Below are positions 9,723 through 62,893 of a stretch of DNA of 64,000 nucleotides, piece by piece. The DNA is taken from NCBI GenBank assembly GCA_020137815.1, contig CM035354.1, positions 2,542,001-2,606,000 of the forward strand. Direction: 5' to 3'. The first letter of the stretch is position 1. Each line of letters starts with the position of its first letter. Both the position numbers and the translations under genes were made by a program. Origin of the DNA: Hormiphora californensis. Taxonomy: Eukaryota > Animalia > Ctenophora. The notes beneath the pieces are model-generated. The model saw only the letters and a program-made list of their open reading frames with translations, was not told where the DNA came from and made no database searches.

Positions 9723-10821
9723 ATTGGAGGGGGGATACTGCACGTGCGTGTTATTGGTTGTTTGTTGCGTGTTCCTGTGTTGTTCCTGTGGTGTTTTAGG
9801 ATCTACTGCTGGGGCCCCTATGATTGCCAAAGCCTTTCTACCTACGTACCCCGTTGATTCTCTACACATCTACAATTCTACGGATCTTTATCACCTGATT
9901 CTACATGTTATTCAGCGGGATTTCCCTTGATGTTTATCACCAGCGCTCTACCACTACCAACCTCCGTATTCTTTACCCCGACATGGAGAGACGAATAGTA
10001 AGAGAGGGGGAGAGAGACATAGAGACGGATGGGGGGGGGGGCTGTTGTAGGACTTCAATGGGCTTTCTAGTCTATATTATAAAGCAGAGAACAGTGCAAG
10101 ACAAAATTTGGGGGAGGGGGTTTTAGGGTTTGCACGTGGAAAATTGACGTGTTGTTAGGGATGGTTGGTGGGGGGTTTGGGGAGTGCACGTGCGTGTGTA
10201 AAGTTTTTCTAATCTTGAGGGATAATAGCTGATTTGAAAGAGCTTGAGATTATCTTTCTAATGAGCCTTGGTTTTTTGAAATTGGTTGAGAAATGACCGA
10301 GTTATGAGGGAAATGGTGAAAAATGAGGACATTTGGGGTTCTGAACTGCTTCAGATCACAGATTGAGAGAAGGGTGAGGGGAGTGTTCATTATGGCGTTA
10401 TAGGGGAGTGAATAGAGGGTGAGATGGAGTGAATAGGGGACGATATGATTCAATAGGGGCCGAGGGGAGTCAATAGGGATAAGAGGCGTGAGGACTGAGG
10501 ACTGAGGGGAGTCAACAGGGGGAAGGGGGTGTGTGGATTATGATCTCGCGACCGGAGGTGCCGCGAAGCGGCGCCGTAGGGAGCAAAGTAGGCATGAGCC
10601 AGGGATCGGGATTGAGATGATTCAATAGGGTGTGAGAGTTTTTTGTTCTTTTGCCTGGGCTCTCTAGTTTGTCTTAAATTTTGCCGCCTACATCAAAATG
10701 CATCGCGATTTTGTTTGACTCGATCCGAAATTTTTGTGCACAGTCAGAAAATTTTGTTTCAAAATTTCAAAACTGATCTTATCTGTTTTTCGCCTCTATT
10801 TCGTCCTCCCATCGGCTGAGT

Positions 10822-11898: not shown

Positions 11899-12105
11899 TT
11901 TTCAAACACACTCAAATTTTCAGCATTTTCAGAATATTTTTACAATTTTGTTGTAATAAAAATTTGCTTCAGAGGGATTCGTTTATAAATCTTTGTAACT
12001 TTTTAATGTTAAATAATAAATGTTATTTCTTAGTTCTTTCTAAACCTGTTGTTTTTCATTTCATTTTGATCCTCTTAACCACTCAATCTATCTCTTCTAG
12101 GCAAA

Positions 12106-13361
12106 ATGTCGGTCATTCAGTCGGGCCAGCACGTTCTTTTTATCAACACAAAAACATCAGAACAAAAGTGTGTCCGGCTCCCCAAACACCAGAAAGTATT
12201 CCTCAAACCCTTCTCCTTCACTCCTGATTCCCTGATTGGCCAGCGATTCAACCACACCTACAGGGTAGAGAAGTCCCAGTTGTGTAAGGTCCAGGAACAG
12301 CCCAGCCTGGAGGAGCCGGTTCTGAACTGCGACAAGACGAACGAGTTCATTAGGGATGATGGGACAGTCCAGTCTCTCTCACAGGATGACATAGAGGGAA
12401 TGAAGGCGAGCGGGGTTGCTGGTGAGGAGATTATTAGGACTCTCCGTGAGAATAGCTCCAGTTTTAACCAAAAAACAGAGTTCTCAAAGGCAAAATGGCT
12501 GAAAAAGAAGATGAGCAAGCACCAGCCGGGAATCATAGTGCGACGTCCCTCGATCCGATTGTTTTGTACCTCCCCCACCAGTAAACTCCGGCCGGATATC
12601 CTTGGAAAGATTGTGAGTGTGGGAATGTTTGGTCTGGTAGCCGGGTCTTGGTGGCCGAGACAGGGGACGACCTGCTAACAAGTGCCATAGCTCAGCGGCT
12701 CGATGGGGAGGGTTGTGCTGTTCAAATATACGAACAGAGACAGCCCCACTGTATGTTCACTGTTTGGTTAGACCTTACCGCCGCTCAGAGGGCAGTGGTT
12801 AGGTATTACCCCCTCAAATTCCTGGCCCGCACTGATCCTGAGTGGAAGGAAGAGGAGCAGAAGGAGGAGAATAAAGTTGAGGAGGTTGTGACGGAGCTGG
12901 GGAAGCGGAAACGAGAACAAGGAGTGGAGGATTGGAACAAATATCAGTCTGTTTGCGAGGAATTGAAAGAAGGGAAATATGACTCACTAATCATATCAGC
13001 TCACTATGATCCCTTTCCGGTGCTCGAGCTAGCCTGGGATATCCTCCGGGCCTCGGGGAAATGTGTCATTCACACGGAGTACCTCTCCCAAGTTGTGGCA
13101 TGTGCCAACTTTGTGAATAGTAAGGGGTGCAGTGATCTGAGTGTGGTGGACCAGTGGTATAGGGAGATCCAGGTACTGCCCGGGAGGACACATCCCGATA
13201 TGAGGATGCAGATTGGGGGAGGGTTCATTCTCAGTTGTACGAAACTTATCCCCGGTATCTTTGAGCATGATTCCGTGCCTACAGTTACACCTGCTGCTCC
13301 AGTTATTGAGAAGGAGTCGGCGCCCACAAACAATGGTTTAACAACTGAGAACACTGAGTAA
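12106..13361 (+). CDS. TRMT6: tRNA m1A58 methyltransferase non-catalytic subunit (Gcd10/TRM6); one apparent frameshift near 12625
   Basis: QSLSQDDIEGMK, NSSSFNQKTEFSKAKWLKKK, REIQVLPGRTHPDM..GGGFIL; adding one base at gtgggaatg restores GNVWSGSRVLVAE. Confidence 0.93.
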
Positions 13362-13365
13362 TGTG

Positions 13366-13474
13366 CAGGAACCGACCGAATCAGGAAATACTGGTTCTTG
13401 ATTGGCTGATAACCAGTCACGTGACCTAAATAACGAGTTCTTATTGGTTGTTTACTTGTTTCGGTCGGTTCCTG
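13366..13474 (+). mobile_element. 109-bp hAT-type MITE, copy 1
   Basis: 15-bp TIR caggaaccgaccgaa/ttcggtcggttcctg; 8-bp TSD gtaatgtg. Confidence 0.92.
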
Positions 13475-13647
13475 GTAATGTGTGTGACACAACTTGTTTA
13501 ACTTATTTATTTTTATCCACCATTTTAACCTGAACTTTTTACCACAACATTGAGTGTTTACTTTCACATGCTGATCTTATCTAGGTATACTCAATATATC
13601 TCTTGAATCAGATTACGTTTTCAACCTCCCTAACTATAATACAGATC

Positions 13648-15124
13648 ATGTTATTCCGGTTTCGGGGTGGTGAGGATTGTCCAGATTGGGTGTTGGCAGA
13701 GATAGCAACCATCTCCCGGTTGTCATCTGTTAAACTAAAACTCATCTGTGTACAGGTAATTAATTAGTAATTAATTGTAATTACGGTTACCATTGTTTAT
13801 AACCGTTGATTTCCCTTTACAGATTATGAAGAATATAGGGACGGACTCACTGAAGTATGAAATGTTAACTAAGCTAACAGACCAGGGAAAGTTAACACTA
13901 TCAGATGTCAAGGCCATGGTTGCCTGTATACGGTTTATCTTGGAGAGCTCCCTGAGGAGTTCAGTTGATCCTGCATCTCTTGATAGCGAGTTACAACAAC
14001 TCGGATTCCCCAAGGTATTTGTGTCGTGATGCGGGTTTTAGTTGTATTGTTCATACTATTATGTGCAACAGCACAATGTTTTAGGTCTAGTGTCTACATA
14101 AACTTCACATCATATATTGGAATACTCTCTAGTTGATGCTTGATAAATGCAACCTAAACTTATCAATACCCCAACCCCCCACTCAGGAGCATGCCACTGC
14201 ACTGACCCCCCCCCCCCACTCAGGAGCATGCCACTGCACTGACCCCCCCCCCACTCAGGAGCATGCCACTGCACTGACCCCCCCCCCACTCAGGAGCATG
14301 CCACTGCACTGACCCCCCCCCCACTCAGGAGCATGCCACTGCACTGACCCCCCCCCCACTCAGGAGCATGCCACTGCACTGACCCCCCCCCCCACTCAGG
14401 AGCATGCCACTGCACTGACCCCCCCCCCCCCCTCAGGAGCATGCCACTGCACTGACCCCCCCCCCCTCAGGAGCATGCCACTGCACTGACCCCCCCCCCC
14501 CACTCAGGAGCATGCCACTGCACTGACCCCCCCCCCACTCAGGAGCATGCCACTGCACTGACCCCCCCCCCCACTCAGGAGCATGCCACTGCACTGACTA
14601 AAGCCTACACTCAGGTCCATACCAATGCACTGACCCCCCACCCCCCCACTCAGGAGCATGCCACTGCACTGACCCCCGCACCCCCCACTCAGGAGCATGC
14701 CACTGCACTGACTAAAGCCTACACGGATTATTGTGAAGATGGTAGTGAGGCTCTTAGGAAACTTACTCTCCGTCTTCCCCCACCCACTATTAACTGGTAG
14801 GTGCCATCTATTTAGTAATGACTAATGGGGATGACTGGTGGGCCCGTAACTTAGTTGTACATCACGTAATAGATTGGAATGAGGGCCACTTTTTACCCTC
14901 GCTCATATATATTCCATTGAGCCCATCCGGTTATATTATACCCACTCATTCACTCCAGGTCGGTCGACTACATTGTTACTGATAGTAAGGAGGGAGATGT
15001 AGGAGAGCCACTCCTAAATCTAACAATTAATGGAACACACTGTACCCTTTCCAGCGCTAAACTTGATACCCTGATACATGAGCTGAAAACTGCTGCAGAG
15101 TGTATCAAAAATGTGAAACTGTGA
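13648..15124 (+). CDS. COMMD4: COMM domain protein 4; exons 13648-13755, 13823-14014, 14693-14796, 14959-15124
   Basis: [40 protein letters not shown]|EHATAL, W|SVDY; GT-AG junctions keep the frame. Confidence 0.93.
14173..14712 (+). repeat. ~35-bp tandem array (~15 copies) of the COMMD4 exon 3 acceptor plus first 20 exon bases
   Basis: (C)n-ACTCAG|GAGCATGCCACTGCACTGAC; last copy continues into the exon. Confidence 0.92.
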
Positions 15125-15297
15125 TACAGCGATCAGAGGACTTTTCTTTTTATAACATGTTTTTGTAACCTAATTTTGATTTATTTTTGATGTTATTGTG
15201 TTTTCAGTAATACTTATTGCGTTTAATTATCAAATTACCCGGCTTCTTTTATGAAACATTCCTCGTCCTCCTCCACAGAGAATGACAATATCTAGTG

Positions 15298-16203
15298 ATG
15301 GAGGAGACTCTAAAGAATGCTGACACCCTCCTCTACCTACTTTCCTACTGTCATTCCTCCCCGTTCCTTGACCGAGATGTGATCACCAAGACACTCAGTT
15401 GGGCCGAGTATCATGGCCGGTTACATAATAAATACTCCGCAAACAATCGAGTAAGGACAGTGCTGGATGTGGAGCTGAAAAAGCTAGCCTTCCGGAATGC
15501 GATTCTGGTGAACTGTTTCGGGTTTGATTTTCTTCGCACCTGCCATGATTTGGCGCTGTTCCTGATTTACAATCATCCCTTTTTGAAGGAGAACAAAACA
15601 ACTGATGTCCCCGCTCCACATTCACAATACAACCTCTACTTCAAGGGTATGATATGTATACAGGGTGGTACTCCAGATATTATCAAAGCTGTGGCAGACA
15701 CTCTCAACCAGCTACATAGTTTCCAACCGGGCGGGGTTTTCACCTCAGCACCCCAAAGTGCCACTAAAATCCTACTTAGTAGGGTGGTTGATGAGGGTCA
15801 ATTGTTGGAAGTATTTCTAGTAGCTAGTGGTGAGATACAGGGTGTCATTATAGGGTGGTTGCTCACACACAAACCTGACTGGAGTGTATTCAAACCTTCC
15901 CTAGTCTGCAAATGTTCCATTTTATCGGACGATTTCTTTAAACTGCACATTCGGTTTCTGTTACAGTTGTTGCAGCAGTGTTACAGCAATGCGGGGAGGT
16001 TGTCCGAGAATACCAGTAGGTGGGTGTTTGGGGAACCAATAGGAGATCAGAACATGTGTAAACGAGTGTTGTGTGAGCATGTGGTGTTACTCCATACCAC
16101 CTCCAGACGGAAATATCTGATGGCCTTTCTTGATAATCTAATGAACAATCATCCCCAATTAAAATACTTTGCACGAATTCTTGTTAGTTTTTGTAATGAT
16201 TAG
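15298..16203 (+). CDS. FANCF: Divergent Fanconi anemia group F protein, intronless
   Basis: MEETLKNADTLLYLL...VITKTLSWAEYHGRLHNKY...VRTVLDVEL resembles FANCF N-terminus (V.RALQWARYL..IH.RF...IR.AL); similar size. Confidence 0.7.
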   Translation: MEETLKNADTLLYLLSYCHSSPFLDRDVITKTLSWAEYHGRLHNKYSANNRVRTVLDVELKKLAFRNAILVNCFGFDFLRTCHDLALFLIYNHPFLKENKTTDVPAPHSQYNLYFKGMICIQGGTPDIIKAVADTLNQLHSFQPGGVFTSAPQSATKILLSRVVDEGQLLEVFLVASGEIQGVIIGWLLTHKPDWSVFKPSLVCKCSILSDDFFKLHIRFLLQLLQQCYSNAGRLSENTSRWVFGEPIGDQNMCKRVLCEHVVLLHTTSRRKYLMAFLDNLMNNHPQLKYFARILVSFCND

Positions 16204-16417
16204 GACTCATTTTTAATATCTTGTCAGTACAATTATAATTTTTACATACAGTGCAGAATGTTTTATAATTTCTTATAATTGATTACAGTAAATAACTCTT
16301 GTGTTTTATTACTTCATTGCTCAGTCAACTATTCTTCTATAATCATGATAACATATTCTTGATATCCAATTCAACTCCTACAGATACAGCACAATGTGAG
16401 AGTTAATACCACACAAT

Positions 16418-19211
16418 ATGGTTGAACAACCTTGTTCTGAGAATGACGACATCAAGAATGCTATCCGGCGACTCCGCAAAAAACTCCGTCAAATTCGGAA
16501 CTTGGAGCGATTGCAACGGTCCCTGTCCCCAGAAGAGAGGGTGAAAGTAGGAAGTAGGGGCGAGTTGCAGGAGTCACTTGGTAGGTTCCTGGCATTAGCT
16601 GATCAGTTTAATGTGTCAACTGTATCAGATAGGTCTACTACTGAGCAACAGAACATATCGGTAGAGAAGGAGAAGGAAGATATGGACGGGGGCCAGTGAA
16701 TCATTGGAGGAGCAGGACAGGGGTCAGTGAGTTAGCGGAGGATAGTGCCGATAGTACAGGGTTTAATGTCAGTGTACTAGTAGAGGAGGAGGGTGATGGG
16801 ACTCAAGATCAGATGACATATGATTTGCTAAGTGAAGCAGCATCATCACCAATACCGTTAGATATGAGCAGCCCGTCTCCAACTCCAACTTCAAACAGCC
16901 TTCCCAAATCCTCTCCTGCTCCTGCTAAGATATCCCCTGGTTCAAAAACACCAACCACATCAAACAAACAAACTCCTGCCAAAACTAAACCCCCCGCTGC
17001 TAAACCAGTTAAATTCTCTGCAGTGTGGACGGAGTTGGACACTCACCAGGATGATTTGGTGATCAGTACCAGTGTGACACCCTCCTACCTCTGTACCGGG
17101 GGGAGGGACAGGTGTGTCACCCTACTGTCACCCTCCCCTCCCCATCACCCCCTCCTTCATACCCTTGGGGAACACACAGACACCGTCACATCCATCCTAG
17201 TCCTACCTGACCCCTCAACCATCTTGACAACATCTCTAGACTGCTTCGGTGAAGGTGTGGAAGGATGGTGCTATACTGCACTCAACCTACCTCTACTCCC
17301 CTATTACTGCAGCAGCTATACATGGGGTTAGAGTTGTAATGGGTACTCAGGGTGGCAAGGTGATGTGTTATAACACTGCTAGAAGGGAGGTTGAGTGGGA
17401 GAGAGGTGTCACATGATGATACCGTGTCTGCCGTGGAGATAACTGACACGCTAGCATTCTCCGCTAGCTACAATCTAGGTATTAAATAAATAATAAATAG
17501 CCTCCTTTCTATTCTATTATCTAATTGTGGTAATCAGTTGTAAACTGAGGTTTAGAACACACGGTTAACCAGCCTCCTTTATAATTATATTTTTTAAATT
17601 CAAACTAACGGGTGACAACTAAAAATTGTCCCTAATTTAAAACAGCTGTAGAAATTTTCCCTTTTGAGATACAGCTTCGGGCCAGTGATAGACTAAAAAG
17701 TTCATTTTCATTGCGATATCGCATCATTTCCTCTTGCCCCACCAAAGCATGAAGTACGTGAAATCTACACAATCTTCTAGCACCTCTAGCGCCTGTTCTG
17801 TTTGAGATACAGCCTCGGGATAGTGATATAATGATTTTTTAGACAATTTTGAACGAAATTAACTTTGTTTCAAACTTCGTAAATCTCAATTTCCTGATAA
17901 GAATCTTCTGTAATAAAGCGTAGTTTACAGGTAATTTGAGAAATCGCCATTTCGACAATCTCTTGAAACATTAATGACGTGGAAAACCAACTTCCTAATG
18001 AGCTGAAATTTTTAAACTTGGCAGTTATGTTGGTTATAGCATGAACAACCAGACTTCCAATTTTGAGAATTCTATCTCATCGGGAAGGTTGTTTCTGATA
18101 ACATAGAAATTTCAAATCTCCGTACTACATGCTTCGGAGGGACAAGAGGAAATGATGCGATATCGCAATGAAAATTAACTTTTTAGACTTTGCCGGTATG
18201 GTATTCCGATTCAAAATTGTCTGAAAAATCGTTCTATTACTGACCTTAAGCTGTATCTCAAAAGGGAAAATGTATACAGCCGTTTTAAATTAGGGACAAT
18301 TTTTAGTTGTCACCCGTTAAAACTTACTTTGTCGGTTTAATTAACTCTTTTTCCAGTTGTTTGGGATCTAGCTACACAAAACAAGATCAGTGAGGTAGAG
18401 GGAGCCCGGAAAGTGGGGAGTTGTGCGGCAGTAGGGAACACCCTGTACTTTTGTAATGGTGGACCCAGTGTTAAGGCTTGGAGCGAGGGACGGGTTAGGA
18501 GTGTTTTTAGGAACTCTTTAGCTCAGCATAACTCTACTGATTGTATAAGGGTTTGTGGGGATCTTCTCCTAGCTTGTGTTTATGAGCTGGATAGTGGATC
18601 GTCTGTCATTAACGGTGAGTACCATTTTGTTCTTTGGTTTAGAGATGCCAAGGTGTTGCCTAATTATTAATTAATTACCCTAATTATTAATTAATTGCCT
18701 TAATTATTAATTAATTGCCCTAATTATTTCAGTTTGGAACATTAAGTCCTCGACCTACATCTGTACAGTGGCAGCACCTGTGTCTTGTATTACCGCTATT
18801 GATGTAGTTTCTACCTCTCCCACCCTGTACACTGCCCTAGTGGGCGGTACATCAACTGCACTTCTCACACTCTCAAAATCAGACAGGTAATGAGAATATT
18901 GATTAATTAATTAATTAATTAATATTAGGTAGGGGGTACTTCAACATCTTGATATGGTTTTTAAATAAGCCATGTCCTATCACTAGCTCAATGTGATATC
19001 TTACCAACCAATCTCCTATAGGTTATCTGGAGCTACCTTTGAAACCGGACTACGACCGTACAGAAAGAACGAGTGTTCTGAACTTGACAGTGAAAGTGAA
19101 AATATAATCGAGAGTGAGGGGAGTGATGACAGTGAAGATGAAGAGGAGGGAGACGTTAGTGGGGCAGATACTGCAGCAGCAGCTTCATACTATTGGTGTA
19201 CAATTGTGTAA
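16418..19211 (+). CDS. WD40-repeat protein with N-terminal coiled coil, acidic tail and CaaX end; exons ~16418-17479, 18357-18614, 18733-18885, 19022-19211; several frameshifts in exon 1
   Basis: IRRLRKKLRQIRNLE; LCTGGRDRCV, HTDTVTSI...TTSLDC; ends YYWCTIV-stop. Confidence 0.7.
17608..18317. mobile_element. Tc1/mariner-type foldback MITE in WD40 gene intron
   Basis: ~70-bp TIR acgggtgacaactaaaaattgtccctaatttaaaac..., TA on both sides, second inner inverted pair 17706-17758/18121-18173. Confidence 0.88.
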
Positions 19212-19328
19212 AATATATTGGTGTTTTAAAATTAGATGTTTTGTTATATGTTTTAGTCACTTTTTTTTAGTTTTGATTTGAATTCGTTTTAGTTTCAAAT
19301 AAAGTCACCAAATTTTCTTGCCGTAGCA

Positions 19329-20837
19329 ATGTTACGAAAGTTGATAAACTTACTTATCACACTTCTGACTGTGTTAAGGAATGTCTTTGCAGCAATCGGA
19401 GGAGAGGCCGCAGGTTCGTAATAGAAGGGAATAGAATAGAAGGGAATAGAATAGAAGGGAGATATTAAATCGAATAACATAGAACATGTTAGATTTCAAG
19501 GTCTAAGCACACGTTTGTAATCTAAACTCTTTTCCAGGTAAAAAGATTGACAGACTGCTATTCTTTGTTTCTGGACGGCACAAAATCCAGCGAATTGCCT
19601 GTGAACTGAGGGGAGTTGATAAAATGAGGTCTCTGGAGAGATGTCTCTCCTTGTCTGCGTGTCCCGAACTTCAGGTAGGTCTACAACTTGCAGGAGGGCG
19701 CGGCAGAGTGTTTGGTGGACTGCGCGCGCGGTTATACACGGTATACTGTGCGCGTAGCTGGAGCGTGGGAAAAATGTACGAGTACACTAAATGTATTCTT
19801 GTCAACATTAATTGATTTCATCTTATCATACTGATAACAGTATAAATGTGTCAAGTCGATAAATCTTTTGACAGGCCGTTAACACAGTTTTGATGTTTCA
19901 GAGGTTCAAGACCATCGTGGACACCCCAACTCTAACTTCCACGATCATGCGAGTAAAGAAGATAAAACCGGAACACGATGCTGAGTTTGCGGCTCGAGTG
20001 AGCATTATTTTCAATCCTATTTGCCAGATAAACAAGCTGCTTGTAGCAGCCGTGAGTGAGAGGAGGGAGGTATATAATACTGAGAATGAAACACATGAGG
20101 CAATGTTGATGGAGCTATGGGCGACTCTACAACCTGATAATTCTCTAGACAACAGGATCTCTGAACAGTGGGATGTTATTGGTTTCCAGGGGACGGATCC
20201 TGCTACTGATTTTAGAGGTACGAAGTCTTAATTAGATAAACGGGTGTTTATCGTCCCGAAATGACCATTTCTAATCTCAACAAAAACAGATGTTGCTTCC
20301 ATTTTCTAACACCCAATGAATCTAACACGCATTGTCTGTTTCAGGTATGGGAGTGTTCGGATTGAAATGTCTGCTCCATTTTGCTAAAAAGAATGTTGGG
20401 AAAAGCGGCTTGGTAGCCTCTCACCATCCTCAATATGGGTTCTCCCTTGCCATTACCTCAATCAACATAACATCACTCATGATGCAATTACTGGAAACTG
20501 GCCAACTCAGGTGGGTTAAATCTCTGATAAGTTAGAGACTTAGAAAAACATTCGATTTCTAATTTCTGGAATGTACTTTTCTTATCGTGTACCTAACCAC
20601 CCTTATCCCTCTCCCAGATCTCATTTTCTGTACAAGTGTGTAAAGGGTGGGAGCAGAAATCTAACACTAAACGATGTCTATGAACTCCATGCCTCTCTAC
20701 TCCACTCCTTTATAAAGTTCTATCAAGATCGTAAACCCGCCTGTATCATGGAGTTTAATACTCACAAGGCGGCCTTTGGGGAGGAAGTCAAAGAACGAAT
20801 GGCGGGAGATGCACCTGTTTTTGAAAGTGTGTCTTAG
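19329..20837 (+). CDS. ELMO domain-containing protein (ELMOD1/2-like); exons ~19329-19413, 19538-19674, 19902-20217, 20345-20510, 20618-20837
   Basis: QWDVIGFQGTDPATDFRG|MGVFGL, HPQYGFSLAITSINIT, PACIMEFN. Confidence 0.92.
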
Positions 20838-36496: not shown

Positions 36497-38534
36497 ACTG
36501 AGCCATTCTCATTGAGTGACTGAGCCATTCTCATTGAGTGACTGAGCCATTCTCATTGAGTGACTGAGCCTTGGGCACGTCGCGCCCCCCATGTTCGCGC
36601 GCCCGTAGGGCGATCCCCTTACATACGGGGCGATCCCCTTACATACGGGGCTTGCCTGCTTCGCAGGCAAGACTGAGCCATTCTCATTGAGTGACTGAGC
36701 CATTCTCATTGAGTGACTGAGTCATTCTCATTGAGTGACTGAGCCATTCTCATTTCTCATTGAGTGACTGAGCCATTCTCATTGAGTGACTGAACCATTC
36801 TCATTGAGTGACTGAGCCATTCTCATTGAGTGACTGAGCCATTCTCATTGAGTGACTAAGCCATTCTCATTGAGTGACTGAGCCATTCTCATTGAGCGAC
36901 TTAGCCATTCTCATTGAGTGACTGAGCCATTCTCATTGAGTGACTGAGCCATTCTCATTGAGTGACTGAGCCATTCTCATTGAGTGACTGAGTCATTCTC
37001 ATTGAGTGACTGAGCCATTCTCATTGAGTGACTGAGCCATTCTCATTGAGAGACTGAGCCATTCTCATTGAGTGACTTAGTCATTCTCATTGAGTGACTG
37101 AGCCATTCTCATTGAGTGACTGAGCCATTCTCATTGAGTGACTGAGCCATTCTCATTGAGTGACTGAGCCATTCTCATTGAGTGACTGAACCATTCTCAT
37201 TGAGTGACTGAGCCATTCTCATTGAGTGACTGAGCCATTCTCATTGAGAGACTGAGCCATTCTCATTGAGTGACTTAGTCATTCTCATTGAGTGACTGAG
37301 CCATTCTCATTGAGTGACTGAGCCATTCTCATTGAGTGACTGAACCATTCTCATTGAGTGACTGAGCCATTCTCATTGAGTGACTGAGCCATTCTCATTT
37401 CTCATTGAGTGACTGAGCCATTCTCATTGAGTGACTAAGCCATTCTCATTGAGTGACTGAGCCATTCTCATTGAGTGACTGAACCATTCTCATTGAGTGA
37501 CTGAGCCATTCTCATTGAGTGACTGAGCCATTCTCATTGAGTGACTAAGCCATTCTCATTGAGTGACTGAGCCATTCTCATTGAGTGACTATTGACTAAG
37601 CCATTCTCATTTCTCATTGAGTGACTGAGCCATTCTCATTGAGTGACTGAGCCATTCTCATTGAGTGACTTAGCCATTCTCATTGAGCGACTTAGCCATT
37701 CTCATTGAGTGACTGAGCCATTCTCATTGAGTGACTGAGCCATTCTCATTGAGTGACTGAGCCATTCTCATTGAGTGACTAAGCCATTCTCATTGAGTGA
37801 CTGAGCCATTCTCATTGAGTGACTATTGACTGAGCCATTCTCATTTCTCATTGAGTGACTGAGCCATTCTCATTGAGTGACTGAGCCATTCTCATTGAGT
37901 GACTTAGCCATTCTCATTGAGCGACTTAGCCATTCTCATTGAGTGACTGAGCCATTCTCATTGAGTGACTGAGCCATTCTCATTGAGTGACTGAGCCATT
38001 CTCATTGAGTGACTGAGCCATTCTCATTGAGTGACTAAGCCATTCTCATTGAGTGACTGAGTCATTCTCATTGAGTGACTGAGTCATTCTCATTGAGTGA
38101 CTGAGCCATTCTCATTGAGTTACTGAGCCATTCTCATTGAGTGACTGAGCCATTCTCATTGAGTGACTGAGCCATTCTCATTGAGTGACTGAGCCATTCT
38201 CATTGAGTGACTGAACCATTCTCATTGAGTGACTGAGCCATTCTCATTGAGTGACTGAGCCATTCTCATTGACTGACTGAGCCATTCTCATTGAGTGACT
38301 GAGCCATTCTCATTGAGTGACTGAACCATTCTCATTGAGTGACTGAGCCATTCTCATTGAGTGACTGAGCCATTCTCATTAAGTGACTGAGCCATTCTCA
38401 TTGAGTGACTGAGCCATTCTCATTTCGCATTGAGTGACTGAACCATTCTCATTGAGTGACTGAGCCATTCTCATTGAGTGACTGAGCCATTCTCATTGAG
38501 TGACTGGGCCATTCTCATTGAGTGACTGAGCCAT
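36497..38534. repeat. 22-bp satellite, roughly 85-90 copies, with a 100-bp hairpin-rich interruption at 36570-36672
   Basis: GAGCCATTCTCATTGAGTGACT. Confidence 0.95.
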
Positions 38535-39132: not shown

Positions 39133-42100
39133 TCATCTTTCAACGGCAGCATCTTTGCCTTTCTGGAGCACACTCCGGCATAGCTTCACCTCTTCCTCTC
39201 TCTGGTCTTTGGAGCCTGAAAAGGAGTTGTTGTTACTGTTAGGGAAAGTGTGTTGTACTACAAATTGTTCTAAATTGTAGCAATTCAAATTGTAGCAATT
39301 CAAGTAGAAGTTTTGAATACTGATAGGGTAAACTGGGGTAAAATGGTCCATTTTTTAACCTTTTAGGTTCTAAAACAAGCAATTTAATAAATTTATACAG
39401 CAGGAAGAAAAAAATATATAGGCTATCCAATGAAACGATTTCCTTTTAAAGCAAAAATTCGGAACAGAACGAGCAGGTGTCCGCTGGAGAAAAAAGTCAC
39501 GTGACACACGTTATTCTATGAACCGTTTTGCCCCATACATGTGCCACTTTGCCCCGTGGACCGTTTTACCCCAGTTTACCCTATGTAGTGTAGTATGTCG
39601 AGGAGGTGGGGGATAGAGGTTGGGGGAAATTTACCCGTCCGGTAAATCGAGGGTACGGTAAACCGTTGGGCCCGGTAAATCGGGGTGCCCGGTAAATCGG
39701 GGTGCCCGGTATATCGGGGTGCCCGGTATATCGGGGTCAAATAGCGTTAATTTCCTGTATCAGGGGAAGTTTATCCTCCCGGTAAATCGGGGTTCCGGTA
39801 AATCGAGGGTACGGTAAACTGAGGGGCGGGTTTGAGTTGTTGTGTAAGGGGTGGGGCTTCTCCACCCCTTACTAAACAAGGTTTAAGCGTACCTAATTTT
39901 CTGAGCAGTTCCGAGAGGATTTCCTCCGCATTTCCAGGAAATGTCCTTTCCGGGAACTGCCCCGCTATGAGATCTATAATACGGAGTGTGTGAACCAGAC
40001 TGGTATCCTCGGGGAGTTCGGCTTCCGTTTCAAGTCTGTTAAACAGTTGGCCGTGAAGGTTCTCTTTGTGGAATCTTTCACATTGGCCACTTGGGTCCTC
40101 CAAACAGATACTCGAAATGAAGAACAGTGCCTGGAAAACGGAGAAATGGGGTGAGCGAGAGAGAGAGAGAGGTACAGTGTCTGGAGATTGAGAGAAATGA
40201 GATGAGCGAGAGGGGCACATTGGTACAGTGTCTGACGAATAGGGAAATGAGATGAGCGAGAGGGGGGTACATTGGTACAGCTTGCCTGAAGTGAGGAGAA
40301 ATGGGATGACAATAATAACGGTACCTTACATCGTAGTTTCTTGTCCTTTGAAAGGGCACAATTGAGTGGTGCTGTGTACCCATCCAACTCAGTAAACTTA
40401 GCCAGAGCATTAGCGTTACCTCGAACCAAACCTGTCCGAATTAGAAGTTTAGAACCAGGAACCGACCGAATCAGGAAATACTGGTCCCTGATTGGCTGAT
40501 AACCAGTCACGTGACCTAAATAACGTGTTCTGATTGGTTGTTTATTTGTTTCGGTCGGTTCCTGTTTAGAACCCACTGTCACGCTTCCTGGGTTTGAGAA
40601 TCAAAACGGGGTTAATCAGAATCAAATCACACGGGCAGTTTAGGACTACATGGTCAATAGTTTGGAACTACATTCCTGGGTGGCAAGTCCCAGCTTTCAC
40701 AAAAACGGTGTCGTTCCCCTCGTGAGAATTTTACTTACAAGAAATGGCGAGTAGGGCTTTAGTTTGTACGGAGAGAGGTTTCCCCGGCTCTGTCATCTTC
40801 AGAAGATCTCCCAGGATAAATGTCTCAGTAGCAAAGTTAGCTACCTTTTCATTGTTCTGTACAGCAGCTGCTATAACTTCACATGCTAACCCCTGGAGCT
40901 CACTGAGGGGGAGAGATAGAGAGGGAGGGAAGGGGAGGGAGGGATAGAGAGGGAGGGAGGGAGAGGGAGGGAGAAACTAGAGATATAGATAGATAAAGGG
41001 GAGACAATGAGAGGTCGAGGGAAGTAGGAATCTAAAGCAAGATAGCAATAAACTAAACTTCGACTAACTCCAATTAACTTTGAATCAAGGTAATGTGCTA
41101 TTGTTAACTTACGGGTCGGGGTTCTTGATGTACGCAGAACAAACGTGAAGTCCTCCCATTAGGTACAAATCTGAAGAAATGGTGCAGTGATATATCTTTC
41201 AGTGCAGATCAGCCATCTTTCATTCCTACCATATCCCTCTCGACTCTTGCTTTTCTCGACCAACTGTTTGGCATTCACCTTCCCTCTTTATCCCAAACTC
41301 ATCTTATTCCAGTCTCACTAACCCCCAGTTGTCATGGCAACTCCCCCCAGTTACCATGGCTACCCAACTCACCTCCAGTTACCAGGACTACCCAACTCCC
41401 CCAGTTACCATGACTACCCAACTCCCCCAGTTACCATGACTACCCAACTCCCCCAGTTACCATAACTACCCAACTCCCCCCAGTTACCAGGACTACCCAA
41501 CTCCCCCAGTTACCATGACTACCCAACTCCCCCCAGTTACCATAACTACCCAGCTCCCCCCAGTTACCATGACTACCCAACTCACCCAGTTGCCATAACA
41601 ACTCACCATTAGCCTCGTCCATATCTTCAGCGGAGTAGGCAAGTTCCTCCAGTGCTTCAACACATTCCTCCCTGCCACTATCCTCCTTTCTTAGCAGCTC
41701 AATCCTTTCACTCATTTCTTTGGCAGGGTTCCTTCCCTCCATCTCTCCTATCACGTTGTTGAGGAACTCCTGCCGCTGTGTGGGAGTTGTTATGGTAACT
41801 GGGGGCCGGGGGGGGGGGGGGGGAGTTGTTATGGTAACTGGGGGGGGGGGGTTGTTATGGTAACTGGGGGGGGGGGGGGGTGTCATGGTAACTGGATGGA
41901 GTTGGGTAGTCATGGTAACTGGATGGAGTTGGGTAGTCATGGTAACTGGATGGAGTTGGGTAGTCATGGTACATAGTTCACTCTTTCATAGTGGAGTTCA
42001 CTCTCATAGTGAAGTGGTCTCTCGTTAGTTAAAATACGACCACTCACGTGGATTACTATAACGACTTCTCTATCTAGAGAGGGGACTATCGCAGGTAACT

Positions 42101-45100
42101 AAAAACTTAGTTTTGTCATTGACTGCATCAGGTGTTACCCAGAGGGAGTCCTTTACTTTCTTCTTTACTTTCTTCTTTACTAAAGAATAGCTGCTGGCGA
42201 ACTAAAGACTTTAGTCCGAGCATCATGAAACTACTAGAGAACTAGAGATCTGTAGAACATTCTATCAGCACGAGCCAATCACAGGCCAGCATTTCTAATT
42301 CCTGGCCTCTGACTGGCTCGTTGAGGACTATGAGTTATAGTTGCGGTGTGGCCTATATAATAAGTGCCCACTGCACCTCAACTGTACCACAACCATGATC
42401 TTTCTAGTTCTACTCATCGCTCTAAGCACAGGGTATGAGGCATCATCCTGGCCGTGTCCCGCGGGGTCATATTGCCCCACTTTCAGACTCAGTGAGAGAG
42501 TGCAATCCTAGATACTATTGCCCCGCTAATTCCACCCGTCAAGTCGTCTGTCCTGCTGGTAGCTTCTGCCCCGATCCTTCTGAGAAATATATCTGTCCAG
42601 CAGGTAACAGTGCTGCTTGTAGTCGTATTACAATGTGTAACAATGTCGCAATTTTAGTGGAGAAACGGTATCCGAACACCGTGCGCAGACGTACACTTTA
42701 CTTAGCGCACGAGTAATAAATCTAGCTGAAAAAGTGTGCTTTATTACCCGCACACTACGTAAACGGTGCGTCTGCGCACGGTGTTTCAATACCGTTTCTA
42801 GTTATTAAGCGGCTGTGTAGTTTCTTTAGAGAAAATTTTCTCATTTTCGAAAATGAGTTGAAAGTTGAGTACATAAACATTCTATCTAAATGGTTTTTTG
42901 GTTTTATAGCTCAGTTGTAGTTCTATTTGAGTATTTGAGGAAGCTACTCTTTCCAAGTGGCTACATGTTTCTGAACCACCAGGAACCGACCGAATCAGGA
43001 AATACTGGTCCCTGATTGGCTGATAACCAGTCACGTGACCTAAATAACGAGTTCTGATTGGTTGTTTACTTGGTTCCTGTGAACCACATTGTATTGTGTT
43101 CCAGGAAGCTACTGCAGCTACGGCTCAATAGAACCGAGGAACTGCACTTATGGTGGCCATTATTGTCCAGAGGGAGCTAAACACCCGACCTCCTGTCAGG
43201 CAGGCTTCTACTGTCCCACACCAGCTGAACGAATAGTTTGCCCCCAAGGTAACTAAACTGGAGGGACTTGATCAATGTCAGGAAATTAGGACATGTGGCA
43301 ATTTGTATAGCTGCTTTTCTCCCCGCAGTGCATTTTAGTAGGGGCATCACCTGACATTAGTTTTATCCAGGAACCGACCGAACCAGGAAATACTGGTCCC
43401 TGATTGGCTGATAACCAGTCACGTGACCTAAATAACGAGTTCTGATTGGCTGTTTACTTGTTTCGGTCGGTTCCTGTTTATCAGATATCCACAGCAGGTA
43501 ACAGTGCCGCTTGTAGTGCGGAGATACCATATTTGAAATACAGTAATGAGACACAAATGCGCGAGTGCTTATGTCAGTACGTCATAGCACGTTGATTGGC
43601 CACGCTTGCGCGTCTTCTTACCGTAATTCAGACCAAAACAGTTTTTCAGTACCGTTTTCCCACTATGTATATCTTAAAGCACAGCTGCAGTAGTAAGGTA
43701 CATTTGAGGGACCTGGTTCCATAATGGTATATCTGCAGAAAGTGCATTTTGAGATAATCGCAAAAAACTGTTTTTTAAACTTCAAGCAGTTGCACTCCAT
43801 TAAATATACAATCTTACCCCGTCAACCCTATGCATTTTAGAAACCTCAAGCAATTATCCTCAACTTCTAGTAAAAAGTAACAGATTCCAACAAAACAGCA
43901 AAAATTCTCGGCCCGTAGAAAAAGTTTAGTCTCAGATATACCAACCTCCTATTATTATAAGTGGTATATCTGCAGATATACCATTATTGTTTTAGATAAG
44001 TGGTACATATGCAGATATACCACCGTTTATAAAAAATATTGGCTGGTATATCTGCAGATGTACCTAGTTTTATATTTTTTTGAAGGTGCATTTTTGCAGA
44101 TATACCAAAATTTCTATTTCTAATTGGTACATCTGCAGATATACCATACATGGTAACTGTCTAAGGGTGGTACATCTGCAGATATACCCCCAAAGCATCG
44201 GTATATCTGCAGATATACCCCAAAGCATCTTTGTACTATCTTAAGATATCCCAAGGAGGCCAAAAAACTGCAAAAGTGGTGGTATAAGTTAAGATGTACC
44301 AAAGTTTTTTTTTGTGTTCCCGAGGTCAGATCTTCACCAAAATTGGTCAGGAGGTACATTAGACCATCCCAAACATGCTCCCACTGTTATCTCCATTTTG
44401 GTATATCTGCACTTATACCATTATGGAACCAGGTCCCTCATTTGTGTTATGTAGGCCACCTTATATATAGCTCGAACTAGCTTCTCATAAAATCCCCCTC
44501 TCTTCGCTCGCGGGACTACCGTGTGACGTGAGCTAATGATTATTGATTGGTACCATTGGTACCTATTCTCGCTCCGCTCGGTCGATCTCAGTCGCGCGCG
44601 ACGTCGATCTCGCATACTTCATGTCCATGTCACCAAAGCTAATGAAAGGAAGCTGGATTTCTAATTAATATTCCCACTGCAGGTACATATTGTAATACTG
44701 CCCGTACAGAACCAACAAACTGCACCGCTGGCCACTACTGCCCAGAGGGGTCAACAAGGCAAAACCGCTGTACTTCAGGATTTTACTGTCCTACCCCCTC
44801 TGAACAAATCGTGTGTCCTGCAGGTAATATATAAGGGATGATACTTATAATTGTGTCTTGCAGTGCAGGGCACCCATAGCTCCTCATAATATCCCCCTCG
44901 CTTCGCTCGGGAACTTCCGAGGATCAGAGCTAGAGCTATACAAGATGAATAGAGTTTGAAACTCGAATTAGTATACTATTTATTTCTTGCACTACTAGAA
45001 TTATATTTCCCTTTACATATGATATCAACCTTTCAGGGTTCTACTGCCAATACAGCTCCACAAAGCCCCGTGAATGTCCCTCCAACATAGGGCGGTACTA

Positions 45101-45858
45101 CTGCCCAGAAGGCTCTGAAAGGGTCACCTATTGCCCAGATGGGATGATGTGCAACACAACATCCGACGCTATACCCTGCCCAGCCGGGTACTATTGTCGC
45201 TATGGCAGAGCGACCCAGTGCCCTGTGAGGTATTACTGCAAGGAAGGGTCAGCGAGACCTACCGTCTGTCCCCGTGGAACCACTACCACTGAGAAGGGGT
45301 CCGTGGAGTGTGTTGAGCAGGACTAAACTGGAAGATTTGGAGGATTTGGAATGAAGATTTGGAATGAATTGAAGAATAGCTTAGATTGCAAACAAAATGT
45401 GATTTTGTAGTGAGATTTACAGTTTTACAGATTTAATTGATTAAAAATAAAAAGAATGTTTTGAATTTCTCGGCTCCCTGGACAGGACTTTTTTCCCCCA
45501 ATATAGGAAATTAACCTTATTTGACCCCGATTTAGTGGACACCCCGATTTAGTGGACAAGAGCCTTTCCCCCGAGGGTGTCCCTCAATCGGTGTCCGACT
45601 GTAACTGGAGATGAGTTGGGTAGTCATAGTAATTGGAGGGAGTTGGGTAGTCATAGTAATTGGAGGGAGTTGGGTAGTCATGGTAACTAGGGGGAGTTGG
45701 GTATTCACTATTCATGAAGTATGAGAGCTAGAGACACCTACTTCCTTGTCGATTGGTTGGAGGACTTCGTTCTGCCTGTGTTCCTCCTGATACCGGAGAG
45801 ACCACTGGAGAATAGCATTCCAATTGGGATGATTCAGCAGGTTGTTCTCCCCTGACAT
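39133..45858 (-). CDS. HSPBP1: Hsp70 nucleotide exchange factor HSPBP1/Fes1; exons 45742-45858, 41607-41775, 41113-41170, 40739-40902, ~40325-40431, ~39893-40130, ~39133-39215
   Basis: NWNAILQWSL...PIDKE|RQEFL; ALEEL..SAEDMDEAN|DLYLMGGL; CEVIAAAVQNNEKV; KALLAIS|CLVRGN. Confidence 0.88.
39323..39584. mobile_element. MITE in last HSPBP1 intron
   Basis: TIR atagggtaaactggggtaaaatggtcca / tggaccgttttaccccagtttaccctat. Confidence 0.8.
39630..39820. mobile_element. pogo/Tigger-like MITE remnant with ccggtaaatcgggg subterminal repeats; relatives at 45480-45601 and 54562-54667
   Basis: Shared aaatcggggtcaaata..gttaatttcct core; relatives end in CAGTC. Confidence 0.65.
40456..40564 (+). mobile_element. 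109-bp hAT-type MITE, copy 2
   Basis: Same TIR; TSD tttagaac. Confidence 0.92.
41320..41971. repeat. ~26-bp X-box-like minisatellite in opposite orientations on the two sides of HSPBP1 exon 2
   Basis: cccagttaccatgactacccaactcc (41320-41600) vs ggagttgggtagtcatggtaactgg (41780-41971). Confidence 0.9.
42272..42362 (+). promoter_or_regulatory. Candidate CCAAT + TATA promoter of the nested Cys-rich gene
   Basis: agccaatca at ~42273 and tatataat at 42354, ~40 nt before the ATG. Confidence 0.45.
42395..45326 (+). CDS. Secreted Cys-rich protein built of CPAGxYCP repeats (GCC2/GCC3, ephrin-receptor-like), nested antisense in HSPBP1 intron 1; exons 42395-42603, 43105-43248, 44683-44823, 45037-45326
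   Basis: MIFLVLLIALSTG signal; CPAGSYCP, CPAGSFCP, GGHYCPEG, GFYCPTP; phase-1 introns; AATAAA at 45446; one extra base near 42482. Confidence 0.85.
42661..42799. mobile_element. Palindromic MITE
   Basis: agaaacggtat..acaccgtgcgcagacg / cgtctgcgcacggtgt..ataccgtttct. Confidence 0.7.
42980..43079 (+). mobile_element. hAT-type MITE, copy 3 (9-bp deletion)
   Basis: TSD tgaaccac. Confidence 0.9.
43368..43476 (+). mobile_element. hAT-type MITE, copy 4
   Basis: Full TIRs; only 6-bp flank match tttatc. Confidence 0.9.
43706..44439. mobile_element. Non-autonomous DNA transposon, Sola-like
   Basis: TIR gagggacctggttccataatggtata; 4-bp TSD attt; many internal ggtatatctgcagatatacc palindromes. Confidence 0.75.
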
Positions 45859-45862
45859 GATG

Positions 45863-47250
45863 CTATTGGGAGATGTGGTTAGGGATGAGGTTATAGGCAG
45901 GAGTGGAGGTTAGGGACGAGGCTAGCTGTTGGGAGATGTGGTTAGGGACGATGCTAGCTATTGAGAGATGTGGTTAGGGACGGGGTTATAGGCAGGAGAT
46001 GTGGTTAGGGACGAGGCTAGCTATTGGGAGATGTGGTTAGGGACGATGCTAGCTATTGGGAGATGTGGTTAGGGACGAAGCTAGCTATTGTGATATGTGG
46101 TTAGGGACGAAGCTATCTATTGGGAGATGTGGTTAGGGACGAAGCTAGCTATTGTGATATGTGGTTAGGGACGAAGCTATCTATTGGGAGATGTGGTTAG
46201 GGACGAAGCTAGCTATTGGGAGATGTGGTTAGGGACGAAGCTAGCTATTGGGAGATGTGGTTAGGGACGATGCTAGCTATTGGGAGATGTGGTTAGGGAC
46301 GATGCTAGCTGTTGGGAGATGTGGTTAGGGACGATGCTAGCTATTGGGAGATGTGGTTAGGGACGATGCTAGCTATTGGGAGATGTGGTTAGGGACGAAG
46401 CTAGCTGTTGGGAGATGTGGTTAGGGATGAGGTTATAGGCAGGAGATGTGGTTAGGGACGATGCTAGCTATTGGGAGATGTGGTTAGGGACGATGCTAGC
46501 TGTTGGGAGATGTGGTTAGGGACGATGCTAGCTATTGGGAGATGTGGTTAGGGACGAAGCTAGCTGTTGGGAGATGTGGTTAGGGACGATATTAGCTATT
46601 GGGGGATGTGGTTAGGGGCGATTCTAGCTATTGGGAGATGTGGTTATGGACGATATTAGCTATTGGGAGATGTGGTTAGGGACGAAGCTAGCTATTGGGA
46701 GATGTGGTTAGGGACGATATTAGCTATTGGGGGATGTGGTTAGGGGCGATTCTAGCTATTGGGAGATCTGGTTAGGGACGAAGCTAGCTATTGGGAGATG
46801 TGGTTAGGGACGAAGGCACGAAGCTAGCTATTGGGAGATGTGGTTAGGGACGAGGCTAGCTATTGGGAGATGTGGTTAGGGACGACGTTAGCTATTGTGA
46901 TATGTGGTTAGGGACGACGTTAGCTATTGTGATATGTGGTTAGGGACGACGTTAGCTATTGTGATATGTGGTTAGGGACGAGACTAGCTATTGGGAGATG
47001 TGGTTAGGGACGAGGCTAGCTATATTGGGAGATGTGGTTAGGGACGAAGCTAGCTGTTGGGAGATGTGGTTAGGGACGATATTAGCTATTGGGTGATGTG
47101 GTTAGGGACGAGACTAGCTATTGGGAGATGTGGTTAGGGACGAGGTTAGCTATTGTGATATGTGGTTAGGGACGAAGGCACGAAGCTAGCTATTGGGAGA
47201 TGTGGTTAGGGACGAGGTTGGCTATTGGAGAGTATTGTGAGGGATGAGGT
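45863..47250 (-). repeat. 32-bp tandem array (~43 copies) of the splice acceptor preceding the HSPBP1 ATG
   Basis: Sense unit TTCGTCCCTAACCACATCTCCCAATAGCTAGC; last copy reads ...CCCAATAG|catcATG. Confidence 0.92.
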
Positions 47251-47466
47251 TAGGGGGATAGCCACCATTGTCGAACAAGGCGAGGAGGCCGTTCTTTTGT
47301 GACAAACATGGGATGGTTTGTTGAGTTTGGTGACAACTTCAAAAAATCCGACTTTACCCTGATACAAACAATGGGCAAGTGTAACAGAATAAAAAGAAGG
47401 ATATCGGATTTTCTCAAATAGCATATTGGATCAGTAAAACTTGTTAAAAATAAAGGCTGTGATAAT

Positions 47467-48696
47467 TTAAAAAGCAAGCTTCTTTAGCAACAAATACACG
47501 TTCTGGCCCGTCTCCATTCCATGTAAATTGTTAGCCGCGCCCTTTAACCTCATCAGAAGTCCCCCGTACGAAATATACGCAGATAAAATAGCGTTAGAGT
47601 CCCCAAAATCATCTCCTTCAATCCTGTACACACGTCCAAACATGACATACTCAAATGTGTCAGCTCGAGTACCCTCCAGGTTGGAGGTATAACTTCCATC
47701 GTCGGGGGCCCCATCCTCGTGGAGAGTGGTGGCGAGCATCAGACGGAACTTGTCTCTCAGTATCACTGGATACACCTGACAGGGGGAGGGGGGGTTGTCA
47801 TGGTAACTGGGGGGGGGGTTGTCATGGTAACTGTGGGGGGGGGGTTTGTCATGGAAACTGTCTCTCAGTATCACTGGGTACACCTGACAGGGGGGGGGGG
47901 GTTGTCATGGTAAGTGGGGGGGGGGGGTTGTCATGGTAACTGGGGGGGGGGGGGTTGTCATGGTAATTGAGGGGAGTTGGGTAGTCATGTTAACTGTCTC
48001 TCAGTATCACTGGGTACACCTGATAGGGGAGGGGGGTTGTCATGGTAACGGGGGGGAGGGGTTGTCATGGTAACTGGGGGGGGGGTTGTCATGGTAACTG
48101 TCTCTCAGTATCACTGGGTACACTTGACAGGGGGGGGGGGTTGCCATGGTAACTGGGGGGGGGGGGGGGGGGTTGTCATGGTAACTGGGGGGGGGGGGTT
48201 GTCATGGTAACTGTCTCTCAGTATCACTGGGTACACTTGACAGGGGGGGTAAGGGGGGGGGGGCTAAGGGGTGGGGGACAACAAAGCAGGGGAAAGGGTG
48301 CGTGTTCGGTACCTCACGTCATTCAGGGGCCGGGCAGGGTGGTTTTGGGTTGGATCAATACTCTCATGGGGGGGGGGGGTGACACGTAACACTTTGTAAC
48401 ATGTAACGCGCACAAAAAGTTTTCTGCACATGTTACTATTGTGCACATGTTACAAAGTGTTACAAAGTGTGACTAAATACCACGTCCTAACTCCTACCCA
48501 ACCTACCAGCAGGTTCTACATACAAGTTCTACTCCACAAACACACAGACAACATATACCTGGGTGTTCACATCGAGAATTAGATCCATCTTGAAGGACTC
48601 ACTCTCACAAAATAACCGGGACACTCTGTCAAAATGCTTGCCATTAGGGTCCACATCTTTCACATCGAAAATATCTTCAAACAGAACTCCCGCCAT
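47467..48696 (-). CDS. POLR2H: RNA polymerase I/II/III subunit RPB8; exons 48559-48696 and 47467-47775, 148 aa
   Basis: [46 protein letters not shown]|VYP...[15 protein letters not shown]...[11 protein letters not shown]. Confidence 0.97.
47776..48250 (-). repeat. X-box-like/poly-G minisatellite with four extra copies of the POLR2H exon 2 acceptor and first ~23 exon bases
   Basis: tctctcagtatcactgggtacacc/ttgacag at ~47860, 47995, 48100, 48212, separated by ggttgtcatggtaactgggg units. Confidence 0.9.
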
Positions 48697-54422: not shown

Positions 54423-54531
54423 CAGGAACCGACCGAAACAAGTAAACAACTAATCATAACTCGTTATTTAGGTCACGTGACTGGTTATCAGCCAATCAGG
54501 GACCAGTATTTCCTGATTCGGTCGATTCCTG
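54423..54531 (-). mobile_element. hAT-type MITE, copy 5
   Basis: Reverse orientation; flanks cttgggga / cttggggga. Confidence 0.9.

Positions 54532-54759: not shown

Positions 54760-62893
<8,134 letters not shown>

What the first reader, a model, noticed from the sequence alone, without database searches (positions are those of the whole stretch)
45863..47250. About 43 tandem complete 3' splice acceptors forming the HSPBP1 leader
Seen: on the sense strand each 32-nt unit has a branch-point CCCTAAC, pyrimidine-rich CACATCTCCC and AATAG; a common variant changes TAG to CAG and so keeps YAG; the last unit sits 4 nt before the ATG; I found no ATG inside the array; the array starts ~220 nt after the POLR2H stop on the same strand. 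Known: ctenophores use spliced-leader trans-splicing. Inference: this is an amplified trans-splice acceptor; any unit would give the same protein with 5' UTRs in 32-nt steps, possibly tuning processing of a POLR2H-HSPBP1 dicistronic RNA.
Basis: partly seen in the sequence, partly recalled or inferred. Interest (0 to 1): 0.85.

Follow-up and report, generated by a model that had tools for sequence, protein, structure and literature searches.

The report
Mirage repeat at a trans-splice acceptor
In a comb jelly, the likely splice signal just in front of the HSPBP1 gene has been copied head to tail about 43 times, a repeat type already known from lancelets and likely a tolerated by-product of DNA slippage, here at what is probably a leader-splicing site where spare copies would cost the protein nothing.

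Summary
The array is real: 43 branch-motif units at 45863-47254 (minus strand), between POLR2H (Rpb8) and a Fes1/HSPBP1 gene, last AG 4 nt before the ATG. 38 of 42 aligned units keep CTAAC plus YAG; 3 lack AG. DNA contigs of a second sample hold the same unit types, so it is no assembly artefact. It is one of three acceptor-spanning repeats among 35 acceptors checked in this window; the others lie in cis-introns (COMMD, POLR2H), and RNA of two studies joins POLR2H exon 1 to the last copy. This matches amphioxus 'mirage' minisatellites; the scan noted such repeats on other pieces of this genome. Signs of selection are weak: lacking ATG is expected by chance, and splice columns are only marginally more conserved (p 0.05-0.13). 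Likely a neutral slippage repeat seeded at a probable spliced-leader acceptor, the last copy being the main site. No RNA tested the leader junction, so a ladder of 5' ends stays open. What differs from known mirages is the trans-splicing setting, where decoy use would be harmless: a natural test of how an acceptor is chosen.

The parts
45863..47254 (-). Tandem array of about 43 units (mostly 32 nt), each a copy of branch motif CCTAAC, C/A-rich tract and AATAG, usually followed by a second YAG
45863..45890 (-). Terminal unit: probable true acceptor (branch motif 45883-45878, AG 45864-45863), 4 nt before the ATG
   Evidence: sequence; score 7.1, 97th percentile of background AGs; use as a splice site is inferred
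45884..45914 (-). AG-less variant unit directly before the terminal unit; two more at 46009-45979 and 46456-46426
   Evidence: the type is also in DNA contigs of run X5
47211..47254 (-). Diverged 44-nt boundary unit holding the first AG of the array (47223-47222)
45742..45862 (-). HSPBP1/Fes1 exon 1 (121 nt from the terminal AG; ATG at 45858; donor GTAGGT follows)
   Evidence: same start Met in a eukprot gene model, 34 of 39 identical
39133..41775 (-). HSPBP1/Fes1 exons 2-7
   Evidence: exon 2 matches Pfam Fes1 41-87 of 89, E 6e-5; other exons by reading frames and splice signals, no Pfam match on the three further exons tested
47255..47466 (-). Spacer: POLR2H 3' UTR (RNA contig reaches 47357), fragment of a high-copy dispersed repeat at about 47313-47361, one donor-like site at 47357, no AATAAA or ATTAAA
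47467..48696 (-). POLR2H (Rpb8): exon 1 48696-48559, exon 2 47775-47467
   Evidence: Pfam PF03870 on both exons; junction in RNA contigs of X7, X8, X9
47751..48249 (-). Second mirage: five copies of the POLR2H exon-2 acceptor plus about 25 exon bases inside the intron; internal control
   Evidence: RNA joins exon 1 to the last copy
14175..14712 (+). Third mirage: about 15 copies of an acceptor plus 20 exon bases in an intron of a COMMD-family gene; internal control

Best explanation
The array is a minisatellite made of copies of the sequence just before the HSPBP1 start codon, which is likely the gene's spliced-leader acceptor; it likely grew by slippage and unequal exchange, is likely neutral, and the leader likely goes mostly to the last copy. 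Shown: the repeat, its unit types, its presence in a second sample, two like repeats at cis-acceptors nearby, and last-copy use at POLR2H in RNA of other individuals. Inferred: (1) seeding by short homology between the first exon bases (CATCAT) and the bases before the branch motif (CCTCAT), with a 4-nt TAGC duplication giving the second AG; the copied piece stops short of the G of the ATG, which is why no unit holds a start codon; (2) growth by local duplication, perhaps helped by the G-rich opposite strand; (3) POLR2H and HSPBP1 are co-transcribed or HSPBP1 has a short outron, and the leader is joined by trans-splicing; (4) exon definition across the 121-nt first exon favours the terminal AG; (5) occasional use of upstream copies only lengthens an ATG-free 5' UTR, so selection against the array is weak and it could reach about 43 copies.
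For: 3 of 35 acceptors picked by hand in the window are the last copy of a junction-spanning repeat, against 5 of 600 random AGs (binomial p about 0.005); two of the three are cis-acceptors, where decoys score as well as the true site (COMMD 8.8-13.4 against 10.7; POLR2H up to 15.1 against 14.9). RNA contigs of 3 of 3 runs laid, from two studies, run from POLR2H exon 1 straight into the last copy. Array turnover is that of an ordinary minisatellite: 25 unit types among 42, near neighbours more alike than shuffled order (lags 1-4, p 0.006-0.04), diverged boundary units. No ATG is expected by chance; 13 of 24 non-signal columns are as invariant as the signal columns, and a type without AG persists in 3 copies. 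Run X5 (other sample and study) gave 76 contigs on exon 1 and the last units, including the AG-less type. Mirages are reported not to disturb splicing (PMC3087553, PMC3902484, passages). Leaders are on at least 56% of Iso-Seq reads in Hormiphora and 13% of its genome is tandem repeat (PMC8527503, passages).
Against: 20 of 41 upstream units are identical to the terminal one over the 23 nt ending in AG and several score as high or higher, so nothing in the local sequence singles out the last copy. In Ciona trans-splicing prefers the first functional acceptor and genes average three to four sites (PMC11155486, passages); cis-intron behaviour need not carry over. Only 1 of 18 variant alleles harms CTAAC or YAG (p = 0.048; 0.13 when the AG-less type is counted), a hint of constraint. 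The POLR2H contigs come from other individuals, whose intron may hold fewer decoys, and contigs drop rare isoforms. The acceptor list was picked by eye and at least one entry (before the FANCF-like gene) is uncertain.
Confidence: 0.55

Rival explanations
1. Same neutral origin, but the leader is often joined to upstream copies (first come, first served), so HSPBP1 mRNAs carry a ladder of ATG-free 5' UTRs up to 1.4 kb whose length follows the allele.
For: 20 of 41 upstream units match the terminal acceptor over 23 nt; no donor-like GT inside the array; the first AG lies 245 nt after the POLR2H stop, like the 154-326 nt spacing at four other genes; Ciona prefers the first functional acceptor (PMC11155486, passages); no protein cost.
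Against: Last-copy use at POLR2H; upstream use makes a first exon of up to 1.48 kb; reported mirages leave splicing normal.
Confidence: 0.2
2. One reading: an amplified trans-splice acceptor kept by selection to tune processing of a POLR2H-HSPBP1 dicistronic RNA.
For: TAAC invariant in 42 of 42 units; the one change at the YAG keeps a pyrimidine; 1 of 18 variant alleles harmful, p = 0.048; unit types shared with a second sample.
Against: p = 0.13 with the AG-less type; 13 of 24 non-signal columns also invariant; ATG absence is chance-level; like arrays at cis-acceptors where amplification cannot help; other clustered genes of the window make do with one acceptor.
Confidence: 0.08
3. HSPBP1 is not trans-spliced here: the array is the 3' end of an ordinary first intron that starts at the donor-like site at 47357, or is simply untranslated leader from a nearby promoter.
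Against: The site lies in a high-copy dispersed repeat and the POLR2H 3' UTR already reaches it, leaving about 100 nt for a promoter and first exon; acceptor-before-ATG is the pattern of several clustered genes here.
Confidence: 0.12
4. Assembly artefact, or a C-rich satellite that only resembles an acceptor.
For: Apparent frameshifts in other genes of the window suggest indel errors; a C-rich 28-nt array at 927-1704 also shows AGs with no exon after them.
Against: 25 unit types with ordered structure; the same types in another sample; the last unit runs directly into the exon; the 927-1704 AGs score lower (-1.3 to 4.6).
Confidence: 0.05

Closest known systems
Amphioxus 'mirage' minisatellites (Adh3, globins BflGb6/BflGb9, troponin C, PGBD5); PMC3087553 and PMC3902484, passages read; the original Adh3 paper was not read
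   Same: Head-to-tail copies of a splice boundary, units of 10-160 bp, many but not all keeping AG/GT, diverged boundary units, authentic site at the exon-side end.
   Different: Here the boundary is probably an outron/first-exon (trans-splice) boundary, only 1-4 exon bases are in the unit, decoy use would not change the protein, and the animal is a ctenophore.
Human F7 intron 7 37-bp VNTR (PMC1557585, abstract and outline)
   Same: Minisatellite whose end unit spans the true splice site; identical pseudo-sites are functional but normally silent.
   Different: Donor side and cis-splicing; the rule found there picks the most upstream donor. No equivalent rule was found for tandem trans-acceptors.
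Ctenophore spliced-leader trans-splicing (Hormiphora californensis, PMC8527503, passages)
   Same: Lineage and probable processing route; abundant tandem repeats and nested genes, as in this window.
   Different: The main text has 0 hits for 'operon' and 'satellite'; supplements not seen; Derelle 2010 not held.
Multiple trans-splice acceptors per gene in Ciona and trypanosomes (PMC11155486, PMC6597758, passages)
   Same: Several acceptors upstream of one coding region; in trypanosomes acceptor choice is tied to 3' end formation of the upstream gene.
   Different: Those sites are unrelated sequences, three to four per gene in Ciona, not about 40 near-identical repeat units.

Membership tests
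Mirage minisatellite | Minisatellite-like tandem duplication | tested here: met
   period 32, 42.2 copies, 86% matches
Mirage minisatellite | Unit spans a boundary that is really used for splicing | tested here: inconclusive
   unit holds branch motif, AG and 1-4 following bases, last copy runs into exon 1; no RNA junction at this site was available
Mirage minisatellite | Many but not all units keep the splice signal | tested here: met
   38 of 42 keep CTAAC and YAG; 3 lack AG
Mirage minisatellite | Local homogenisation with diverged boundary units | tested here: met
   neighbour likeness at lags 1-4; 44-nt first unit and AG-less penultimate unit
Mirage minisatellite | Length instability between haplotypes | not testable with these tools
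   present in a second sample, but summed contig depth is no copy number and no listed contig spans the array
Mirage minisatellite | Does not disturb regular splicing | tested here: inconclusive
   untested for HSPBP1; holds for the neighbouring POLR2H repeat in contigs of other individuals
Spliced-leader trans-splice acceptor | Acceptor signal upstream of the start codon without a paired donor | tested here: inconclusive
   AG 4 nt before ATG, no donor-like GT in the array, but one donor-like site at 47357 in the spacer
Spliced-leader trans-splice acceptor | Leader joined to this AG in mRNA | tested here: inconclusive
   no RNA contig lay on exon 1 in 3 of 3 RNA runs
Eukaryotic operon | Same-strand genes with short stop-to-acceptor distance | tested here: met
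   245 nt to the first AG (1604 to the last); 154-326 nt at four other genes
Eukaryotic operon | One precursor RNA covering both genes | not testable with these tools
   only contigs were offered; they cannot show a single transcript

The most novel reading that the evidence does not exclude
A mirage at a spliced-leader acceptor is used along its length: the leader is joined to many of about 38 intact copies, giving HSPBP1 a ladder of ATG-free 5' UTRs up to 1.4 kb set by repeat allele, and the first copies fix where the POLR2H mRNA is cut from a shared precursor, so a VNTR acts as a heritable dial on operon processing.
Probability: 0.15. Interest if true: 0.68.

Novelty: new variant of a known kind. 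Interest (0 to 1): 0.3.

Why it matters
As a neutral mirage it adds a trans-splicing case to a repeat type known from lancelets and seen elsewhere in this genome. Its real use is as a ready-made experiment: about 40 near-identical acceptors, told apart by point variants, in front of one gene where no choice is punished. Mapping leader junctions on it would show whether trans-splicing takes the first acceptor transcribed or the one defined by the first exon. Searches for a printed case found mirages only at cis-boundaries; the library lacks most subscription papers.

Tried and rejected
Loose ends at the POLR2H junction (88, 170, 140 letters) are shown only for 30 letters, so a leader on POLR2H could not be read. 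The X9 contig end at 47357 coincides with the edge of a high-copy repeat, so it gives a minimum 3' UTR, not a poly(A) site. No whole genome is held. Metagenome scans: exon-1 protein, 598 pattern hits, none confirmed; unit 20-mer, 1 hit, a single copy in unrelated-looking DNA, judged chance. No look-alike stretch in other scanned genomes. PDB sequence search with exon 4 gave nothing meaningful. No leader-end motif in the window at up to 2 mismatches. Folding of the last 303 nt gave z = -3.2, but from short pairings between the palindromic TAGCTAG parts of different units with ensemble frequency 0.001; no structural role is claimed. ATG absence as a sign of selection: rejected. G-quadruplex drive: G4Hunter-type mean 0.76, above the window's 90th percentile (0.49), 42 TTAGGG; kept only as an untested contributor. 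Derelle 2010 not held. No supplements were read; those of PMC8527503 may bear on operons and repeats.

Full report
Observation. Tandem Repeats Finder gives an array of period 32, 42.2 copies, 86% matches at 45862-47228. On the minus strand 43 CCTAAC-type anchors run from 47254 to 45883. The gene upstream on that strand is POLR2H (Pfam Rpb8 on both exons) and the gene downstream has a Fes1 domain in exon 2; I call it HSPBP1 rather than SIL1 because exon 1 shows no signal peptide by eye. A eukprot gene model starts at the same methionine with 34 of 39 identities; its identifier format is one I recall from Pleurobrachia, and earlier scan notes also name that genus. The last AG is 4 nt before the ATG and the POLR2H stop is 245 nt before the first AG. 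Of 42 aligned units (the diverged first one was left out), 38 keep CTAAC and YAG, 33 have TAG, 6 CAG, 3 have no AG, and 30 of 41 non-terminal units have a second AG 4 nt later. With a matrix from 34 other acceptors picked by eye, true sites score a median 10.3 (leave-one-out), the terminal unit 7.1 and the other array AGs 0.0-9.7: moderate acceptors, with nothing marking the last one.

Is it real? Run X5, DNA by the tool's guess, from another sample and study than the best holder, gave 76 contigs on exon 1 and the last three units and carries the AG-less type. No listed contig spans the array and depth is no copy number, but an assembly artefact is unlikely.

It is not alone. Two cis-introns of the window end in repeats that copy the acceptor plus the start of the next exon: about 15 copies in a COMMD-family gene (14175-14712) and five in POLR2H (47751-48249). 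Three of 35 acceptors are the last copy of such a repeat, against 5 of 600 random AGs (p about 0.005). Their decoys score like the true sites. RNA contigs of X7, X8 and X9, from two studies, run from POLR2H exon 1 directly into the last copy; these are other individuals and contigs drop rare forms. The repeat type is published for amphioxus as 'mirages', which keep many but not all splice signals, vary in length and do not disturb splicing (PMC3087553, PMC3902484, passages); the human F7 VNTR is a donor-side case (PMC1557585, abstract). The name and the first paper came to me from earlier scan notes on other pieces of this genome; I checked the papers and the pattern in this window myself.

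Is the array under selection? Absence of ATG is uninformative: 80% of shuffled units lack one, only 3 of 96 single changes would make one, and P(0 in 18) is 0.56. In the column test 1 of 18 variant alleles harms CTAAC or YAG where 23 of 96 possible changes would: p = 0.048 with the terminal and three AG-less units dropped, 0.13 with the AG-less type counted as one event; 13 of 24 non-signal columns are invariant too. This is a weak hint at most. The order of the 25 unit types shows local duplication (lags 1-4, p 0.006-0.04; lag 5, p 0.13) and the boundary units are diverged, as in ordinary minisatellites.

Is the site a trans-splice acceptor? Inferred, not shown. Leaders are on at least 56% of Iso-Seq reads in Hormiphora (PMC8527503, passages). 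In this window, single acceptor-like sites lie just before or shortly before the start codon of the Gcd10p, COMMD, FANCF-like, ELMO-family and Hop2 genes, for four of them 202, 283, 154 and 326 nt after the previous stop (171 rather than 154 if the nearer AG is used). The POLR2H 3' UTR reaches at least 47357, about 100 nt from the array. The spacer has no AATAAA and one donor-like site inside a high-copy repeat. The RNA runs offered did not cover HSPBP1 exon 1, so the junction itself is untested.

Mechanism. The first exon bases (CATCAT) resemble the bases before the branch motif (CCTCAT), and the consensus unit begins with CATC right after a second AG that looks like a TAGC duplication. Misalignment at this short homology would copy the last 28 nt of the outron, stopping before the G of the ATG; further slippage or unequal exchange would give about 43 copies and push the true acceptor from about 250 to 1604 nt behind POLR2H. 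By analogy with POLR2H and published mirages, exon definition across the 121-nt first exon likely favours the last AG. Against this, 20 of 41 upstream units equal the terminal one over 23 nt and Ciona prefers the first functional acceptor (PMC11155486, passages), so a ladder of 5' ends remains a fair rival (0.2). A selected amplifier is unlikely (0.08).

Novelty and verdict. It works like a mirage and meets three of six defining features, with two inconclusive and one untestable; none failed. The probable trans-splicing setting was not found in print. New variant of a known kind; interest 0.3, mainly as a natural test of acceptor choice.

Noticed in passing
window 14175-14712 (+) and 47751-48249 (-): Acceptor-spanning repeats in cis-introns of a COMMD-family gene and POLR2H; in POLR2H the two most upstream of five copies have a changed acceptor.
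   Followed up: yes
window 45601-45707, 41813-41975, 41338-41596, 47790-48200: A dispersed 26-27-nt C-rich satellite family sits beside splice sites of HSPBP1 and POLR2H; before HSPBP1 exon 2 it gives six AGs scoring 8.5-11.9 against 9.4 for the true site.
   Followed up: partly
window 10822-20817 (+): Operon-like run of six same-strand genes (Ldh_2, Gcd10p/TRM6, COMMD, FANCF-like, a WD-like gene named by eye, ELMO family) with acceptor-like sites before the start codons.
   Followed up: partly
window about 42500-45327 (+): Cysteine-rich multi-exon gene nested antisense in HSPBP1 intron 1; the related gene model P0001 has only a short stretch between exons 1 and 2, so the nesting may be lineage-specific or that model mis-assembled.
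   Followed up: no
window 1769-1887 (-), 927-1704, 1-520 (+): Hop2 gene right after FAM91 with an acceptor before its ATG; its first intron holds a 28-nt x 27.5 array and, by eye, the end of a nested GPCR-like gene.
   Followed up: partly
window about 2931 (-) and 12606 (+): FAM91 and Gcd10p reading frames break before the end of their Pfam profiles (299 of 447; 171 of 295): indel errors, tiny introns or real frameshifts.
   Followed up: no
window 47313-47361 and 9490-9725: Fragment of a very high-copy repeat in the POLR2H 3' region; a related copy with inverted ends at about 9490-9725 looks like a small non-autonomous transposon.
   Followed up: partly
window 36509-38534: Large 22-nt satellite (about 80 units) downstream of HSPBP1, not tied to an exon that I could see.
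   Followed up: no
window about 56640-61290 (+): Apparently full-length LINE-like element with endonuclease, reverse transcriptase and RNase H-like parts (by eye) inside an intron; no leader-end motif found at up to 2 mismatches.
   Followed up: partly
window 13366-13476, 40470-40563, 42980-43080, 43370-43476, 54425-54530, 61458-61568: Repeated element of about 110 nt with inverted ends, at least six copies by eye.
   Followed up: no
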